Part shown: piece by piece, positions 8,348-49,646 of the stretch
How positions within the stretch are numbered: the stretch's first letter is position 1
How the letters are laid out: each line of letters starts with the position of its first letter
Source: the human T2T-CHM13v2.0 reference genome, Homo sapiens
Assembly (NCBI RefSeq): GCF_009914755.1
Contig: NC_060930.1
Length of the DNA: 64,000 bases
Strand: one strand, 5' to 3'
Position numbers and translations under genes: made by a program
Notes under the pieces: generated by a model
Seen by the model: the letters and a program-made list of their open reading frames with translations, nothing else
Databases searched by the model: none
Told to the model about the DNA's origin: nothing

Positions 8348-8682
8348 CTTAGTCTGTTCAGGTTTCTGTAATAAAATACTATCAAGTAGGTGGTTATACA
8401 CAACAGTTTATTACTCACAGTTCTGGAGGCTGGTATATTCAAGATCAGGACACCAGCAGATTCAGTGTCTGCTGAGGGACCACTTTCTTATAGATGGACA
8501 TCTTCTCCCTGGAACTTCATAGAGCAAAAGAGTCAAACAAGCTCTCTGGCATCCCTTTTATAAGTACACTAATACCATTCATGAGGGGATCACCAAAGGC
8601 CCCATCTTCTAATGTCATAACCTTAGGAGTTAGAATTTCAACTAACTTTTATGGGGGAGACATAAACATCCAGTCCATTGCA
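8348..8682 (-). mobile_element. MLT1A/MST-type MaLR LTR
   Basis: TCTTAGTCTGTTCAGG...CACAGTTCTGGAGGCTGG...AACATCCAGTCCATTGCA. Confidence 0.8.
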
Positions 8683-36199: not shown

Positions 36200-36348
36200 T
36201 TATCAAACAACTCCCAGATAGAAATAAACCTCAAAAGTTACCTGCAATTTCCAATTTCCATGCCTTCTGTTCATTCACAAGATCCTGGTAACTGACATTT
36301 ATATAGATAGGGCTGCTATGTGTCAGGTGTCAGAAATAAATTTTTCTA

Positions 36349-36752
<404 letters not shown>

Positions 36753-41993: not shown

Positions 41994-43469
<1,476 letters not shown>

Positions 43470-44074
43470 TTTTTTTAAATTTCATGCCTGTAAAATAAAG
43501 TCTGAAGTATGGGACAGGAGGTCATTTTACATTCTTGTTCCAAACAGTCTTTCCAGGCACATCTCCTGCCACTGCCTTCCAACCACTCTTGTCCTCCACC
43601 TCTTCTCAATTCTAATTCCCCCCATCTATTTTCTTTCCCAGACTAAATATGCATGTTCACTTCTCTAGTTCTTTGGAATTCCCTCTGGTAGAAAAGCTCT
43701 CCCTTTAAGTCCCACCCCACTGCATCATTTGTCAAAGCTCTACTCTTCTTTAAGGTCCAATTCAGATATCGAACCTTCTCTCTATATACACATACTCCAA
43801 TGTGGTCAGAATTTATTATCCATTCTTTTATGTTTCTATAGCCCTTCATTTATACATCTCTTCTAGCTTTGAAATCTCTGCCTTTTTGTTCATTGTGCTT
43901 ATTTTTCATTTATTCAACATTCATTCAAAAAATATTTATTGTCTACTATATTCCAGGTGCTGGTATCTGTTTTAAAAAGACAAACATAGGTTCCTCCACC
44001 ACTAAAACAGTCTTCTAAGTCCTCATGGAGTTCAGATTCTACTTGTAAGTTCTGAGTTTTTTGTATGTCAGTAT

Positions 44075-44453
44075 TGATAGGGACAGCAGACAGCCAAGGG
44101 ACCCTGGGGAAACCCTGGCTGCCTTCAAGCCTAAAACCAGACTGCTGGTCCCGGATGAAGGCTGCCCTTTCCTGACTGATTCTCCCTGCATAATGCCCAC
44201 CTACGCCCTGGGAGGACGGGGTGGAGCCTCGCGAAGTTCAGGCCGTTTGTAGGTGGAGGAGCCTGGCCTCCTCAGTTCCTGTGTGGTGACTTGGCATTCA
44301 ATCTGTGAGGCAGGAAACCTGCTATCAGGACTCTTTCTCACTTTGCTGAGAATTCCTCTTTCCTTTTTTTCTCTTCACCGAATAAACCCTATAATGTGTC
44401 TGTCTGCCTAAATTTTCCTGATCGTGTATTGAGAACCCGGTTTTTCTACAATA
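44075..44453 (+). mobile_element. MER48-like ERV1 solo LTR
   Basis: Starts TGATAGGGACAG, has AATAAA at about 44381, ends GAACCCGGTTTTTCTACAATA; 4-bp TSD GTAT. Confidence 0.8.
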
Positions 44454-44864
44454 GTATCACCTTCCCCAGTACCAAACAATTTCCTTCCTGTATAGAGCAG
44501 GCACTCTACAGCTATGACTGCCTGTTTCTCCTTTCCCTAGATATCCATTTGTCTAAAATTAACAAGGTGTAGGCACCAGAGGCGACAGAGGGCTCAGGTG
44601 TGGTGGGTTGGGTGGGGGCCCGCTGAACTGACCAGCGGCATTTCAGCTCATTTACCCCCACCCATCAAAACCCTGGAGCCAGGTCCGTTCAGCCGACCGT
44701 CACCATGACCAACGCAGATAGCGAGGGCGGAAACCTCCGCCACCAGCTGGACAGCAACAAACAGGACCTGAGCCTCAGCAACCTGGATGAAGACCCGGTC
44801 AAGGAGCTGGCTGCCCTTCCAAAGACTACCACACTGGATCTGTCTTGTAATAAATGACTATTGT

Positions 44865-45160
44865 GCCGGGCACGGTGGCTCACGCCTGTAATCCCAACAC
44901 TTTGAGAGGCCGAGGAGGACGGATCACCTGAGGTCAGAAGTTCAAGACCAGCCTGACCAACACGGAGAAACCCTGTCTCTACTAAAATACAAAAAAAATT
45001 TGCCAGGCGTGGTGGTGCATGCCTGTAATTCCAGCTACTCGGGAGGCTGAGGCAGGAGAATCGCTCTAACCTGGGAGGCCGAGGTTGCAGTGAGCCGAGA
45101 TTGCGCATTGCACTCCAGCCTGGGCAACAAGAGTGAAACTCCATCTCAAAAAAATAAATA
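44865..45160 (+). mobile_element. AluS (Sp/Sq-like) inside the LRRC59 pseudogene
   Basis: TSD core AATGACTATT at 44853-44862 and 45160-45169. Confidence 0.94.
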
Positions 45161-45822
45161 ATGACTATTCTCCCGTCGGATTTCTGTGGCCTCACACACC
45201 TGGCGAAGCTAGACCTTAGAAAGAACAAGCCGCAGCACCCACCAGCAGACTTGGGCCGTTTGGTCAACCTCCAGCACCTGGCTCTCCTCAACAACAGGCT
45301 GGTCACCTTGTCGTCAGCTTTGCTCAGCTGAAGAACCTGAAGTGGCTGGACCTGAAGAATAACCTCTGGATCCCGGCCTGGCCAAGGTGGCAGGTGATTG
45401 CTTGGGTGAGAAGCCATGGAAACAGCATGCAAACAAGGCATCACAACACATGAAGGCTGTACAGACAGACCACAAGTGGGAGAGGCAGCAGGGTTGGAAG
45501 TAGAACGAGAGGCAGAGAAGTATGAGGCAAAGCAGCGAGCTAAGGAAGCTCAGGAGAGGAAATGCGGAAGCGGGAGAAGGCAGAGGAGAAAGAGTGCCAG
45601 AGAAAGGAGTATGATGCCCTCAAAGCAGCCAAGCGGGAGCAGATCATACCTACCAAGGAAACAAATTAGGCCCCCAAATCTAAGTCCGAATCCTGCCCCT
45701 GCAAGCCACTCCCCCGGAAGCACACTCGTTTCTGGGCTGTGCTGAAACTGCTGCTGCTGCTGCTTTGTGCAGCGGGGGCGCTGGTTGCTTGTCAGGTGAC
45801 ACAGCTACAGCAGCTGCCCCTT

Positions 45823-47433
45823 TGTGTCCGGAATAATGGGTTCTTGGTCTTGCTGACTTCCAGAATGAAGCTGCGGACCCTCGCGGTGAGTGTTACAGTT
45901 CTTAAAGATGGTGTGTCCAGAGTTTGTGCTTTCAGATGTTCAGATGCGTCCGGAGTTTCTTCCTTCTGGTGGGTTTGTGGTCTCACTGACTTAAGAAGTG
46001 AGGCGCAGACCTTTGCTGTGAGTGTTACAGCTCTTAAAGACAGCGCATCTGGAGTTGTTTGTTCCTCATGTCCGGAGTTGTTGGTCCCTCCCAATGCGTT
46101 TGTTCGTCCCTCCCAATGCGTTTGTTCGTAGTCTCACTGGCTTCAGGAGTGAAGATGCAGACCTTCACGGTGAGTGTTATAGCTCATAAAGGCGGCGTAG
46201 ACCCAAAGAGTGAGCAGCAGTAAGATTTATTGCAAACAGAGAAAGAACAAAGCTTCCACAGCACAAAAGGGGACCTGACCGGGTTGCTGCTGCTAGCTCG
46301 GGCAGCCTGCTTTTATTCCCTTATCTGGCCCCACCCACATCCTGATGATTCGTCCATTTTACAGAGAGCTGATTGGTCCGTTTTGACAGGGTCCTGATTG
46401 GTGCATTTACAATCCCTGACCTAGACACAGAGTGCTGATTGGTATACTTACAATCCTCTAGCTAGACATAAAAGTTCTCCAAGTCCCCACTAGATTAGCT
46501 AGACACAGAGCACTGATTGGTGTGTTTACAAACCTTGAGCTAGACACAGAGTGCTGACTGGTACGTTTACAAACCTTGAGCTAGACACAGAGTGCTGATT
46601 GCTGCATTTACAAACCTTGAGCTAGACACAGAGTGCTGATTGCTGCATTTACAATCCTTTAGCTAGCCATAAAAGTTCTCCAAGTCCCCACCAGATTAGC
46701 TAGATACAGAGTGCTGATTGGTGCATCCACAAACCCCGAGCTAGACACAGAGTGCTGATTGGTGCATATACAATCCTCCAGCTAGACATAAAAGTTCTCC
46801 AAATCCCCACCCAACTCAGGAGCCCAGCTGGCTTCGCCTAGTGGATCCCACGCCAGGACCACGGGTGGAGCTGCCCACCAGTCACCCACCCACACTCCTC
46901 AACCCTTGGCGATGGGACCAGGCACTGTGGAGCAGGCGGCGGTGCCCGTCAGGGAGGCTCGGACCATGTGGGAGCCCACCGCGTGGGGGCTCAGGCATGG
47001 CAGGCTGCAGGTCCTGAGCCCTGCCCCATGGGGAGGTGGCTGAGGCCTGGTAAGAATTCAAGCCGGGTGCGGACAAGCCAGCAGTGCTGGGGGACCCGGT
47101 GCCCCCTCCACAGCTACTGGCCCGGATGCTAAGCCCCTCATTGCCCAGCGCCAGTGGCGCTGGCAGGCTGCTCTGAGTGCGGGGCCTGCCGAGCCCGCGC
47201 CCACCTGGAACTGGTGCTGGCCCGCGAGCACGCAGCCCTGGTTGCCACCCGCGCCTCTCCTTCCACACCTCCCTGCACGCAAAGGGAGCCAGCTCCAGCT
47301 TCTGCCAGCCCAGAGAGGGGTTCCCACAGTGCAGCGGTGGGCTGAAGGGCTCCTCAAGTGCGGCCAGAGCAGATGCCAAGGCCGAGGAGGCACCAAGAGC
47401 AAGTGAGGGCTGCTAGCACATTGTCACCTCTCA
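45823..47433 (-). mobile_element. LTR12 (ERV9) solo LTR, full length, 1611 bp
   Basis: Minus strand starts TGAGAGGTGACAATGTGCTAGCAGCCC and ends TTCCGGACACA; 4-bp TSD CCTT at 45819-45822 and 47434-47437. Confidence 0.96.
46285..46800 (-). promoter_or_regulatory. LTR12 U3 enhancer repeats and core promoter, pointing leftwards
   Basis: About 7 GCTAGACACAGAGTGCTGATTGG units; 6 intact CCAAT boxes (46372, 46397, 46438, 46516, 46717, 46758); AGATAA at 46321-46326; AATAAAAG TATA-like at 46310-46317. Confidence 0.75.
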
Positions 47434-48064
47434 CCTTTGCACCAGCGTGAACACCATCTGTGACAATGTGGTCCAGGGTCTGCACCACCATGAGATCCTC
47501 CAGACCGACTCTCAGCAGTGAGCTTGTCCCCAGCACCTGCTGCCTCCCAGCCTTGGAGCTTGGATTCCTATGGAATTGGGCTCTGCTGGACACAAACTCT
47601 TTTTAGCATCAGACCTACCTGCCATCATCAAATGGCTGCTGATTGGTACTTGAGACCTCCTCTTTGTAGGACTTCTTCATTCCTTAGTCAGGGTTTCCTG
47701 GTGGAATGAGGAGAAATGGGAGGTGGTGGGGGACAGTTACCTGCATGCCTAAAGGAATAGGCTTGGGGGTGGGGAGAAAGAAAACATAGCCATTTCTAGT
47801 TGTTACACAAAGCTGTGTAAAGGCTCATTTCTACTAAATGGTCAGCTGTCACCAAAAAAAAAAAAAAGTGTCATGAGACCTTTATGAAACATGCCAATAG
47901 GGTATGGGAATTATCTAACTATTTTGAAGGAATCTAAGTAATTAAACAAAAAATGCCACTGTCCTAACTAATAGCAGTTAACCAACTCATAATAGGAGTC
48001 ACCCAGAGAATTTTTTATCATCTAGAAGTAATGGCTTGTTTCATTACTGGATGATGATGCCTCT

Positions 48065-48285
48065 CGAGTCTTTATTATGCACCAGGCACTGTCTGAGAGC
48101 TTTCAGTATTCACTCATTTAATCTTCTCAACAACTCTAAGTAGTATGTTATCTCTTTTTCAAAAAAAAAATAGATATGGAAACAGAAAGATGAGTTAAAT
48201 TCTTTGCCCAAGATAACAAAACTGGCAAGGGATGGAGCTGGCATTTGAACTCAGGGAGGCTAGCTTCAAATTCTGTGTTCTCCAC
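48065..48285 (-). mobile_element. MIR
   Basis: CACTCATTTAATCTTCTCAACAAC...GGAGCTGGCATTTGAACTCAGG. Confidence 0.75.
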
Positions 48286-48968
48286 TACACATTAATGATG
48301 TAGACAGTGAAAATCTTTCCCAATGTGTGATAGACTAAAATCATTGATAGATGATTACTAATGCAAGAAGACTGTTACACAAGTGGTTGTAATTTCTGTT
48401 GGGCTCTTTATATGTAAGGAATAGAGATGTATTCTGTTTATTCAAAGTAGTGTAACATGAGGAAGGATAGCAATATAAGTTAACACATACACGGAACTCA
48501 GGGAAAGCAGGAATCACTTAGAATCTGCCTCATAGAGCCAGAAACTAGAAGGCCATTCAGATTTTTAAACTTCCCTAGGGACCTGAGAAGCAGGACTTTA
48601 TGAATTTTTCTTACTCTAACATTCCACCGTTAACATATCTGCTCCTGTCTGACCCCTTCTTTTACTGTTATCAACTGGTTTTCTTTTCATTCTTCTCAGT
48701 TAAATCCCTGAGAAGAATCTGGTTGAATCAGCACAAAAATACTTAGATGGAGCCTTTTTTCCCAGGCCCACTCCTGAAGAACTAGCATGCCATGGCTGAC
48801 TGTGCTTGAGTCCAATTCCCTCTGTAGCCAACCAACGAAAGGCTGGAAGGAGGGAAAGGACAAGGTCACTTTGTCCAAAACAGTTGAGCTGATGCAAGGT
48901 CTGGGCATGGGTAGCTTCCATGGAAAAGTGCCATTTGCAGGGCAGACACTCTTGTATAAGAATCTCAT

Positions 48969-49646
<678 letters not shown>

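What the first reader, a model, noticed from the sequence alone, without database searches (positions are those of the whole stretch)
44075..47433. LRRC59 retrocopy between convergent retroviral promoters: candidate inducible antisense/dsRNA cassette
Seen: a sense MER48-like LTR ends about 120 bp upstream of the pseudogene 5'UTR. A complete LTR12 sits inside the CDS in antisense orientation, with its core promoter (about 46285-46330) facing back across about 950 nt of LRRC59-homologous sequence including the start codon. Known: LTR12 elements are NF-Y-dependent promoters active in germ cells and de-repressed by HDAC/DNMT inhibitors; pseudogene antisense RNAs can yield endo-siRNAs against parent genes; LRRC59 is an ER membrane protein linked to TLR trafficking and interferon signalling. 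Inference: LTR12 activation would give an anti-LRRC59 RNA, and MER48 activity would add cis dsRNA. Caveats: the promoter-proximal CCAAT is mutated (ATTCG at 46348-46352) and the copy is clearly diverged from the parent.
Basis: partly seen in the sequence, partly recalled or inferred. Interest (0 to 1): 0.7.

Follow-up and report, generated by a model that had tools for sequence, protein, structure and literature searches.

The report
LTR12 first exon crossing dead LRRC59 copy
An old, dead copy of the LRRC59 gene was later split by an Alu and by a backward-facing retroviral LTR12, which gene models use as a far-upstream start for the neighbouring LGSN gene, so this is an ordinary retroviral alternative promoter and not a switch that silences LRRC59.

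Summary
A sense solo LTR (44075-44452) ends 120 bp before an LRRC59 processed pseudogene. The pseudogene is 89.6% identical to its chr17 parent and has 5 frameshifts and 1 stop. It is split by an Alu (44863-45169) and by a complete antisense 1611-bp LTR12 (45823-47433, 4-bp target duplication).

The LTR12 keeps 6 CCAAT boxes, the E-repeat array and the AATAAAA box. Its start-site motif and its promoter-proximal CCAAT are degenerate.

The supplied RefSeq table places the most upstream LGSN 5' end (46322) inside this LTR12. I confirmed GT donors at 45653 and 45242, both at positions where the pseudogene differs from its parent. Mature minus-strand RNAs therefore carry 169 nt, or in a second model 414 nt, of antisense pseudogene, and then splice towards LGSN, 161 kb away. 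They never reach the start codon.

The 169-nt part shares 0 of 149 perfect 21-mers with LRRC59 mRNA; the 414-nt exon shares 32 of 394. No plus-strand transcript is annotated, and three poly(A) hexamers lie in its path. Pseudogene endo-siRNA systems depend on a rodent-only Dicer isoform.

Verdict: an LTR12-derived distal alternative first exon of LGSN. The dsRNA / LRRC59-silencing reading is unsupported. Low interest.

The parts
44075..44452 (+). Old solo LTR ('MER48-like'; the name is untested), sense to the pseudogene. It is flanked by a 5-bp duplication AGTAT (44070-74 and 44453-57) and has AATAAA at 44381.
   Evidence: full-length matches, 72-86% identity, 828 candidates of which 40 were scored. 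PBS-like and PPT borders in two proviral pairs fix the orientation..
44573..44862 (+). LRRC59 processed pseudogene, 5' piece: 5'UTR, ATG at 44705, exon 1 and part of exon 2. This piece is not covered by the RefSeq pseudogene row.
   Evidence: HSPs to chr17 exon 1 (81.6%) and exon 2 (87.1%); 50-aa ORF from 44705; 1-nt deletion after 44854.
44863..45169 (+). Alu insertion (dimeric, 7SL-derived) with its A-rich tail and the second copy of its target duplication (aatgactatt at 44853-62 and 45160-69).
   Evidence: two sub-threshold Metazoa_SRP matches on the + strand (E 3e-13 and 1e-10); 73-84% matches to Alus in the parent's introns..
45170..45822 (+). LRRC59 pseudogene, middle piece (rest of exon 2 through the first part of exon 7). 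It has four 1-nt deletions, in-frame deletions, and TAG at 45667-69.
45823..47433 (-). Complete solo LTR12 (ERV9 LTR), 1611 bp, antisense to the pseudogene, with a 4-bp target duplication CCTT. It has a 5' GC-rich extension (about 47433-46800), an array of 10 E repeats of 41 bp (46788-46386) with 6 CCAAT boxes, then R and U5 down to 45823.
   Evidence: TRF. (motifs); 4559 and 2760 candidates, 74-89% and 79-82% identity; 73% identity to a copy that a paper names LTR12C; the family features as published.
46286..46352 (-). LTR12 core promoter. It contains a degenerate proximal box (CGAAT, 46352-46348), GGGTGG (46336-31), AATAAAA (46317-11), and an initiator-like 12-mer GCTAGCAGCAGC (46297-86) that matches 9 of 12 positions of the published motif and lacks the GCCA....TGGC repeat.
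46226..46231 (-). The LTR12's own AATAAA poly(A) signal. The annotated exon reads through it.
   Evidence: and the hub annotation.
45654..46322 (-). Annotated LGSN alternative first exon: 500 nt of LTR12 plus 169 nt antisense to the pseudogene. There is no acceptor upstream. The donor is TTG|GTAGGT, with its GT at 45653-52.
   Evidence: Hub RefSeq table. (splice check); the donor GT lies at a position that differs from the parent; identity 145 of 169; 0 of 149 perfect 21-mers.
45243..45656 (-). Second annotated LGSN first exon or 5'-incomplete model, wholly antisense to the pseudogene. The donor is CTG|GTGGGT, with its GT at 45242-41.
   Evidence: Hub RefSeq table; identity 367 of 414; 32 of 394 perfect 21-mers; longest exact run 43 nt.
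47434..47867 (+). LRRC59 pseudogene, 3' piece (end of the CDS and the 3'UTR, 95.5% identical in the UTR) and an A14 tail (47854-67). On the minus strand it lies behind the LTR12 promoter, so the LTR12 does not transcribe it.
8419..8514 (-). Downstream annotated LGSN exon with an AG acceptor and a GTGAGT donor. It is the only annotated exon in the window with an acceptor, so it is the probable next exon after the alternative first exons (inferred; the exon chains of the models were not seen).
   Evidence: Hub RefSeq table..
36242..36403 (-). Another annotated LGSN first exon. There is no AG upstream, it starts in Alu-like sequence, and its donor is GTAACT.
   Evidence: Hub RefSeq table..

Best explanation
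This locus is a stack of nested insertions with one live part.

History. An LRRC59 mRNA was retro-copied about 120 bp downstream of an older solo LTR. The copy decayed into a dead pseudogene. An Alu, and separately an ERV9 element that survives as a solo LTR12 in antisense orientation, later inserted into it.

The live part. The LTR12 still has most of its promoter parts. In current gene models it supplies the most upstream 5' end of LGSN. Transcription starts in the LTR12 on the minus strand and reads through the LTR's own poly(A) signal and U5. It then enters the pseudogene in antisense and is spliced at GT donors that exist only because of pseudogene-lineage substitutions. Splicing joins it to exons further down, towards the LGSN coding exons about 161 kb away.

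Role. The element works as an LTR12-derived distal alternative promoter and first exon. By analogy with other LTR12 copies, it is probably active in germ line, early embryo, tumours or epigenetic-drug-treated cells. The pseudogene is passive exon material. No regulation of LRRC59 is expected.

Shown: the anatomy, the order of insertion, the promoter motifs, the splice signals and the low perfect complementarity. Taken from the supplied annotation: the transcripts. Inferred: where the promoter is active, and the lack of effect on LRRC59.
For: - Anatomy and order of events. The retrocopy aligns to all 7 parent exons without introns. It is 89.6% identical over 1352 nt, K2P 0.11, with five 1-nt deletions and one stop in the CDS, against an intact 307-codon ORF in the parent. 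The Alu and the LTR12 each excise cleanly with their target duplications.
- LTR12 identity. The array has 10 E repeats of 41 bp. The minus strand carries 6 CCAAT, 6 TCTGT[A/G]TCTAGCT and 3 GTGGGGA motifs. AATAAAA lies at 69% of the LTR length, as the review describes for the family.
- Transcripts. The hub RefSeq table gives LGSN exons 45654-46322 and 45243-45656 on the minus strand, and the gene span ends at 46322. Neither exon has an upstream acceptor, and both end at GT donors. Both donor GTs lie at positions where the parent differs. Exon 8419-8514 has proper AG and GT signals.
- LGSN coding exon. A Gln-synt_C exon lies at C6:64425911-64426885 on the minus strand, E 1.6e-78.
- Precedent. 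LTR12 copies are well-known alternative promoters and are activated by DNMT and HDAC inhibitors (review sections 5-6). LGSN itself is listed as driven by another LTR12C/HERV9 provirus in late blastocyst (supplement row). It is listed as up 86-fold after CRISPRa aimed at LTR12C in HEK293T cells (supplementary Table S2).
Against: - The transcripts rest on a gene table that may include predicted models. I saw no expression data.
- The annotated 5' end (46322) is 5 nt upstream of AATAAAA, whereas the published start lies about 30 nt downstream of it.
- This copy lacks the GCCA....TGGC start-site repeat, which 10 of 29 relatives have. Its proximal box is not CCAAT, whereas 27 of 29 relatives have CCAAT there.
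- The copy is only 73% identical to the named LTR12C near LGSN. Its median identity to 29 relatives is 81%.
- Its estimated hg19 position (about chr6:64151818-64153428) has no row in the LTR12C table of the CRISPRa paper. The transactivated LTR12C row found near LGSN is another copy, at chr6:64035502-64036922.
- No open paper holds both LGSN and LTR12 in its text.
Confidence: 0.7

Rival explanations
1. Convergent LTR promoters make the pseudogene an inducible antisense/dsRNA cassette. The LTR12-driven antisense RNA, with or without sense RNA from the upstream LTR, lowers LRRC59 expression through endo-siRNAs or antisense pairing.
For: - Antisense exons over the pseudogene are annotated (hub table).
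- Exon 45243-45656 is 88.6% identical to the parent (367 of 414). It contains a 43-nt exact run and 32 of 394 perfect 21-mers.
- Predicted intermolecular duplexes with LRRC59 mRNA are far stronger than for shuffled RNA: -313.6 against a mean of -126.8, and -755.4 against -286.1 kcal/mol, with 10 shuffles each.
- The minus strand has no poly(A) hexamer between 45822 and 43941, so unspliced RNA could cross the whole 5' part.
Against: - Mature models splice out at 45653 or 45242, about 540 to 950 nt before the start codon.
- The LTR12-linked exon part has 0 of 149 perfect 21-mers.
- The best-conserved piece (47438-47852, 106 of 395 perfect 21-mers) lies behind the promoter and is not transcribed by it.
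- No plus-strand transcript is annotated, and three plus-strand AATAAA hexamers precede the overlap.
- The upstream LTR family is old (72-86% identity between copies).
- Gene-regulating pseudogene endo-siRNAs depend on Dicer-O, which is absent outside Muridae and Cricetidae, and mutations erode such pairing over time (review passages).
- LGSN RNA stays below 0.3 RPKM even after CRISPRa. LRRC59 is an abundant housekeeping mRNA (recalled, not tested).
- The four papers that hold LRRC59, pseudogene and antisense together were seen as a search listing only, and none is about such regulation by its title or abstract start.
Confidence: 0.04
2. The locus is inert debris. The LTR12 is silent in every normal context, and the LGSN models that start in it reflect rare, noisy or mis-assembled transcripts without biological consequence.
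For: - The start-site motif and the proximal CCAAT are degenerate, and the copy is more diverged than its relatives: median 81.3% identity to them, against 84.2% among them.
- CpG is depleted, with observed/expected 0.41.
- The annotated 5' end is off the canonical start.
- The locus is absent from the supplement tables I could search.
Against: - Two independent annotated exons start in or just below the LTR12 and use good donors.
- Six CCAAT boxes, AATAAAA and a GGGTGG box are retained.
- AATAAAA is kept in 25 of 29 relatives, so the promoter layout is the family's usual one.
Confidence: 0.2
3. The LTR12 acts mainly as a distal NF-Y-bound enhancer for LGSN or another neighbour, and its transcripts are by-products.
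For: LTR12 copies with CCAAT/GATA repeat arrays are documented enhancers (review section 6). This copy keeps 6 CCAAT and 6 GATA-like motifs.
Against: There is no RefSeq functional-element row over 44075-47433 in the hub table. No chromatin data were available here. The annotated spliced first exon argues for promoter use.
Confidence: 0.06

Closest known systems
LTR12 (ERV9) solo LTRs used as alternative promoters of cellular genes, for example DHRS2, GBP2 and CADM2, as listed in the review PMC11853044 (sections 5-6 read)
   Same: It is a solo LTR12 upstream of a gene in the gene's orientation, with a U3 CCAAT/GATA repeat array and an AATAAAA box. Transcription starts in the LTR and is spliced from a donor in flanking DNA to the gene's exons. 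The canonical promoter is kept.
   Different: - It is very distal, about 161 kb from the Gln-synt_C exon.
- The start-site motif and the proximal CCAAT are degenerate.
- The splice donors lie in an antisense processed pseudogene.
- There is no published expression evidence for this copy.
The proximal LTR12C/HERV9NC provirus upstream of LGSN (hg19 chr6:64035502-64043043; T2T C6:64471507-64479160, outside the window)
   Same: It has the same target gene, the same strand and the same LTR family. It is listed as the start of an LGSN transcript in late blastocyst (PMC8767690 supplement row). Its 3' LTR has a row in the LTR12C table (S1) of the CRISPRa study, in which LGSN is listed as up 86-fold (PMC11317136, Tables S1 and S2).
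   Different: It is a different insertion, about 109 kb closer to LGSN. It is only 73% identical to the window's LTR12, and it is a provirus rather than a solo LTR.
Mouse oocyte gene-regulating endo-siRNAs from antisense-transcribed processed pseudogenes (passages of review PMC13399003 read)
   Same: A processed pseudogene is transcribed in antisense as part of a longer LTR-initiated RNA that could pair in trans with the parent mRNA.
   Different: - That system needs the truncated Dicer-O isoform, which is found only in Muridae and Cricetidae.
- Here complementarity is eroded (0 of 149 and 32 of 394 perfect 21-mers).
- The RNA is a 5' exon of a protein-coding gene's transcript.
- No small RNAs are known from this locus.
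Cryptic LTR12C start sites induced by DNMT and HDAC inhibitors (as summarised in the review)
   Same: The LTR family is the same, and the expected outcome is the same: an LTR-initiated transcript spliced into a downstream gene.
   Different: The subfamily of this copy is unknown. This copy was not found in the tables I could search.

Membership tests
LTR12 (ERV9 long terminal repeat) | The U3 region holds tandem repeats of about 41 bp (E elements) carrying CCAAT, TCTGTATCTAGCT-type GATA motifs and GTGGGGA motifs | tested here: met
   TRF finds period 41 with 10.0 copies at 46386-46788. The minus strand has 6 CCAAT, 6 TCTGT[A/G]TCTAGCT and 3 GTGGGGA motifs. The features are as given in the review.
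LTR12 (ERV9 long terminal repeat) | An AATAAAA TATA-like box at about 70% of the LTR length, preceded by an Sp1-type box | tested here: met
   AATAAAA is at LTR position 1117 of 1611 (69%), and GGGTGG lies 19 nt upstream of it. AATAAAA is kept in 25 of 29 related copies.
LTR12 (ERV9 long terminal repeat) | The start-site motif GCCAGCAGTGGC with the inverted repeat GCCANNNNTGGC | tested here: not met
   There is no GCCA....TGGC in the LTR. The homologous 12-mer matches 9 of 12 positions. The repeat is present in 10 of 29 related copies, so many family members also lack it.
LTR12 (ERV9 long terminal repeat) | Sequence homology to copies named LTR12 by others; assignment to a subfamily | tested here: inconclusive
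   It is 73% identical over positions 1-1467 to the copy that PMC11317136 Table S1 names LTR12C. It is 74-89% and 79-82% identical to other genomic copies. Family membership is clear. The subfamily (C, D, E and so on) cannot be assigned without a repeat library.
LTR-derived alternative promoter of a host gene | The transcript 5' end lies inside the LTR, in the LTR's sense orientation | not testable with these tools
   The hub RefSeq table puts the LGSN span end and exon 5' end at 46322, inside the LTR12 and 5 nt upstream of AATAAAA. No CAGE or RNA-seq data were available here.
LTR-derived alternative promoter of a host gene | A splice donor downstream of the start joins the LTR exon to host-gene exons | tested here: met
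   The donors are TTG|GTAGGT (45653) and CTG|GTGGGT (42) at 45242, and the downstream exon 8419-8514 has AG and GTGAGT signals. There is no GT[AG]AG[TG] donor inside the LTR's own R-U5.
Processed pseudogene (retrocopy) | An intron-less copy of a spliced mRNA with an A tail and disabling mutations | tested here: met
   All 7 parent exons are contiguous. The A14 tail is at 47854-67. There are five 1-nt deletions and a TAG at codon 223. Flanking target duplication: only 7-mers with one mismatch were found, which is inconclusive.
Pseudogene-derived endo-siRNA / natural antisense regulator of the parent gene | Extended perfect complementarity to the parent mRNA within the transcribed antisense part | tested here: not met
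   Perfect 21-mers number 0 of 149 in 45654-45822 and 32 of 394 in 45243-45656. Across everything the LTR12 could transcribe (44573-44862 plus 45170-45822) there are 48 of 903.
Pseudogene-derived endo-siRNA / natural antisense regulator of the parent gene | Dicer activity able to process long dsRNA, and small RNAs that map to the locus | not testable with these tools
   Review passages state that Dicer-O occurs only in Muridae and Cricetidae, and that putative endo-siRNA levels in non-rodent oocytes are minimal. No small-RNA data were available here.
Convergent-transcription dsRNA locus | An active sense promoter whose transcripts reach the antisense-transcribed stretch | not testable with these tools
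   No plus-strand transcript appears in the hub table. Plus-strand AATAAA hexamers at 44381, 44849 and 45153 lie between the upstream LTR and the overlap.

The most novel reading that the evidence does not exclude
When this LTR12 is de-repressed (germ line, early embryo, tumours, HDAC/DNMT inhibitors), unspliced or exon-45243-45656-containing LGSN 5' RNAs pair in trans with the abundant LRRC59 mRNA. The pairing would span up to 414 nt at 88.6% identity and include a 43-bp perfect stretch. The resulting long imperfect duplex would be edited or sensed (ADAR, PKR, MDA5). It would then add to the 'viral mimicry' response or dampen LRRC59, an ER factor in nucleic-acid-sensing TLR trafficking.
Probability: 0.04. 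Interest if true: 0.5.

Novelty: new member of a known kind. Interest (0 to 1): 0.18.

Why it matters
If the LTR12 is a real start site, it adds one more case to the long list of ERV9 LTRs that give a host gene a second, epigenetically gated promoter. Here the gene is LGSN, a lens gene. A 2023 paper (abstract start seen) links LGSN to chemoresistance of gastric cancer stem cells, and LGSN is recalled as a lung-tumour antigen. LGSN would then have two independent LTR12-type upstream starts, which could help explain its ectopic expression.

The locus also shows how a decaying antisense pseudogene can donate splice donors to an LTR-initiated exon. For LRRC59 biology it most likely does not matter.

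The report also corrects the annotation: the LRRC59 pseudogene extends 290 bp further 5', beyond the Alu.

Tried and rejected
I used searches and stretches instead.
- Rfam at gathering thresholds over 43000-49000: no match.
- Target duplication of the retrocopy: only 7-mers with one mismatch, so its exact ends are approximate.
- Subfamily name of the LTR12, and the name 'MER48': not testable without a repeat library.
- Supplements searched for LGSN or LRRC59 with no hit:
  - PMC7641743.
  - PMC5085097.
  - PMC10593957. Its files 7, 8, 11, 12 and 13 were not searched and could still bear on this.
- Supplements searched for the locus by estimated hg19 or hg38 coordinates with no hit: PMC8767690 and PMC11317136. 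The coordinates were projected with a fixed offset, calibrated on one LTR12C about 116 kb away, so a shift of more than 1-2 kb would make me miss a row.
- Text searches:
  - LGSN with LTR12: 0 papers.
  - LGSN with LTR: 3 papers. I read passages of one, which concerns LGSN fusion transcripts in liver cancer and has no link to LTRs. One of the other two is the preprint version of that paper.
  - LRRC59 with pseudogene and antisense: 4 papers, seen as a listing only, none on this topic by title or abstract start.
- Rejected idea: that the 250-aa minus-strand ORF 44689-45441 is a gene. It runs antisense through a dead CDS and an Alu and is cut by the annotated donor at 45242. I ran no homology search on it.


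Full report
**What is there**

The window is human chr6, as the hub states. Reading 43800-48200 and searching the same genome shows a nested set of insertions on the plus strand:
- 44075-44452: an old solo LTR.
- 44573-44862: the 5' piece of an LRRC59 processed pseudogene.
- 44863-45169: an Alu with its tail and target duplicate.
- 45170-45822: the middle piece of the pseudogene.
- 45823-47433: a complete LTR12 in the opposite orientation.
- 47434-47852: the 3' piece of the pseudogene.
- 47854-47867: an A14 tail.

**The pseudogene**

It matches, exon by exon and without introns, a seven-exon gene on chr17 (C17:51249627-51264432, minus strand). I set the exon borders from the GT/AG signals and joined the exons in a script. 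The parent then gives a 307-codon open frame.

A global alignment, with the Alu, the LTR12 and one copy of each target duplication removed, gives these figures:
- 89.6% identity over 1352 positions, K2P 0.11.
- 82.5% identity in the 5'UTR, 88.5% in the CDS and 95.5% in the 3'UTR.
- Five 1-nt deletions in the CDS, after 44854, 45312, 45362, 45491 and 45556.
- Four in-frame deletions.
- A TAG at parental codon 223 (45667-69).

No indel appears at either insertion junction. The Alu duplication (aatgactatt at 44853-62 and 45160-69) and the LTR12 duplication (CCTT at 45819-22 and 47434-37) are therefore clean. Both insertions are younger than the retrocopy.

With a recalled neutral rate of about 2.2e-9 per site per year, K2P 0.11 puts the retrocopy at very roughly 40-50 million years. 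The review read here dates the ERV9 invasion to about 30 million years ago, which fits the nesting order. The RefSeq pseudogene row begins at 45157, so it omits the 290-bp 5' piece.

**The upstream LTR**

- 44075-44452 matches other copies from end to end (positions 1-377 of 378). Identity is 72-86%, with 828 first-look candidates of which 40 were scored.
- It carries a 5-bp flanking duplication, AGTAT.
- Its only AATAAA is on the plus strand, at 44381.
- In two places in the genome the same LTR occurs as a pair, 4.3 and 5.5 kb apart. In this orientation a PBS-like TGGCGCCCAG follows the first LTR and a purine tract precedes the second.

The name MER48 could not be tested.

**The Alu**

Its two halves each give a sub-threshold match to Metazoa_SRP on the plus strand (E 3e-13 and 1e-10).

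**The LTR12**

On the minus strand, the 1611-bp element has the layout that the review gives for the family:
- A GC-rich 5' extension of about 630 bp. It matches positions 1-644 of the query in other copies at 79-82% identity.
- Ten 41-bp E repeats.
- 6 CCAAT, 6 TCTGT[A/G]TCTAGCT and 3 GTGGGGA motifs.
- A GGGTGG box, then AATAAAA at 46317-11, which is 69% of the LTR length.
- An AATAAA poly(A) signal at 46231-26, then U5.

Two promoter parts are degenerate:
Of 29 related copies, 27 have CCAAT there.
- The start-site 12-mer matches 9 of 12 positions of the published motif and lacks the GCCA....TGGC repeat, which 10 of the 29 copies have.

The copy is diverged. Its median identity to those 29 copies is 81.3%, against 84.2% among them. 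It is 73% identical to the LTR12C copy next to LGSN that a paper names. CpG observed/expected is 0.41.

**What the LTR12 does**

The hub's RefSeq table gives LGSN (minus strand) a span that ends at 46322. It also gives 'other transcript' exons at 45654-46322, 45243-45656, 36242-36403 and 8419-8514. I checked the signals:

| Exon | Upstream AG acceptor | Donor |
|---|---|---|
| 45654-46322 | none | TTG\|GTAGGT |
| 45243-45656 | none | CTG\|GTGGGT |
| 36242-36403 | none | GTAACT |
| 8419-8514 | yes | GTGAGT |

So the most upstream LGSN model starts inside the LTR12, 5 nt upstream of AATAAAA. It reads through the LTR's own poly(A) signal and U5, which contain no GT[AG]AG[TG] donor. It enters the pseudogene in antisense and splices out after 169 nt. 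A second model covers 45243-45656.

Both donor GTs sit at positions where the pseudogene differs from its parent. The parent's antisense strand lacks these GT donors, so they very likely arose as the pseudogene decayed.

The LGSN catalytic-domain exon (Pfam Gln-synt_C, E 1.6e-78) lies at C6:64425911-64426885 on the minus strand, 161 kb downstream.

The simplest reading is a distal LTR12-derived alternative promoter and first exon. This is a well-described class (review section 6).

**LGSN and LTR12 elsewhere**

No open paper holds both LGSN and LTR12 in its text. Two supplements link LGSN to a different copy:
- A row in PMC8767690 lists an LGSN transcript in late blastocyst starting in 'LTR12C|HERV9NC-int|HERV9NC-int|LTR12C' at hg19 chr6:63988545-64043043.
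- Table S2 of PMC11317136 lists LGSN as up 86-fold (RPKM 0.003 to 0.275) after CRISPRa aimed at LTR12C in HEK293T cells, with a proximal H3K4me3/H3K27ac-marked LTR12C.
- Table S1 of the same paper has a row for chr6:64035502-64036922.

I located that provirus at T2T C6:64471507-64479160. It is about 109 kb nearer to LGSN and outside the window. The window's LTR12, projected to hg19 at about 64151818-64153428, has no row in those tables.

**The antisense/dsRNA hypothesis**

For it:
- Annotated antisense exons exist.
- Exon 45243-45656 is 88.6% identical to the parent and has a 43-nt exact run.
- Predicted duplexes with LRRC59 mRNA are far stronger than for shuffled sequence. The values are -313.6 against -126.8 and -755.4 against -286.1 kcal/mol.
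- No minus-strand poly(A) hexamer lies between 45822 and 43941, so unspliced RNA could run across the start codon.

Against it:
- Mature models stop at 45654 or 45243 and do not reach the ATG at 44705.
- Perfect 21-mers against the spliced parent number 0 of 149 in the LTR12-linked 169 nt and 32 of 394 in the second exon. Over everything the LTR12 could transcribe there are 48 of 903.
- The best-preserved piece (106 of 395 perfect 21-mers) lies behind the promoter.
- No plus-strand transcript is annotated. A plus-strand RNA from the upstream LTR would meet AATAAA at 44381, 44849 and 45153. Further on it would meet three GTGAGT donors in the reversed LTR12.
- The review passages I read state three things. 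Gene-regulating pseudogene siRNAs in mouse oocytes depend on the LTR-driven Dicer-O isoform. No such isoform is seen outside Muridae and Cricetidae, and non-rodent oocytes have minimal putative endo-siRNAs. Mutations erode such pairing.

- NF-Y/CCAAT dependence of LTR12, and its activation by DNMT and HDAC inhibitors.
- The role of LRRC59 in TLR trafficking through UNC93B1 (passages of PMC5591332).

**Verdict**

There is annotated LTR12-initiated antisense RNA, but it is the 5' exon of LGSN transcripts. The evidence does not support a dsRNA cassette or an effect on LRRC59. I file this as a new member of a known kind, of low interest.

The main uncertainty is that the transcripts rest on a gene table I could not trace to primary data.

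Noticed in passing
window 44573-44862 and 45157: The RefSeq row for the LRRC59 pseudogene (LOC642554) starts at 45157, just after the Alu. It omits the 290-bp 5' piece (5'UTR, ATG at 44705, exon 1 and part of exon 2) that lies upstream of the Alu.
   Followed up: yes
outside the window: G000:C6:64471507-64479160 (loci L055 and L056): A HERV9 provirus with LTR12C LTRs lies a few kb upstream of the recalled position of the canonical LGSN start, on the same strand. Two paper supplements connect it with LGSN expression, in late blastocyst and under LTR12C CRISPRa. LGSN would therefore have two LTR12-type upstream starts.
   Followed up: partly
window 36242-36403 (minus strand): This annotated LGSN exon has no AG acceptor upstream and begins in Alu-like sequence read in antisense. 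It looks like a further alternative or 5'-incomplete first exon.
   Followed up: partly
window 44689-45441 (minus strand): A 250-aa ATG-started ORF runs antisense through the dead LRRC59 CDS and the Alu. It is cut by the annotated donor at 45242. It is most likely a chance ORF. No homology search was run.
   Followed up: no
G000:C16:84111711-84112214 and G000:C12:110312870-110313259 (loci L002, L007, L008, L011, L012): Two further, more diverged LRRC59-like copies (69-80% identity to the window's pseudogene) sit on chr16 and chr12. They were not examined further.
   Followed up: no
window 46078-46129: A 22-bp unit is tandemly duplicated (2.4 copies, 96% matches) inside the U5 part of the LTR12. 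This is a copy-specific feature.
   Followed up: no
window 45886, 46018, 46170 (plus strand): The reversed LTR12 presents three GTGAGT donor-like sites to any plus-strand transcript. In antisense orientation, this LTR could exonise or truncate sense RNAs.
   Followed up: no
paper PMC9380957 (passages read): LGSN is named among six genes that recur in cancer-specific fusion transcripts with different partners in liver cancer long-read data. I did not check whether far-upstream starts such as this LTR12 contribute to that.
   Followed up: no
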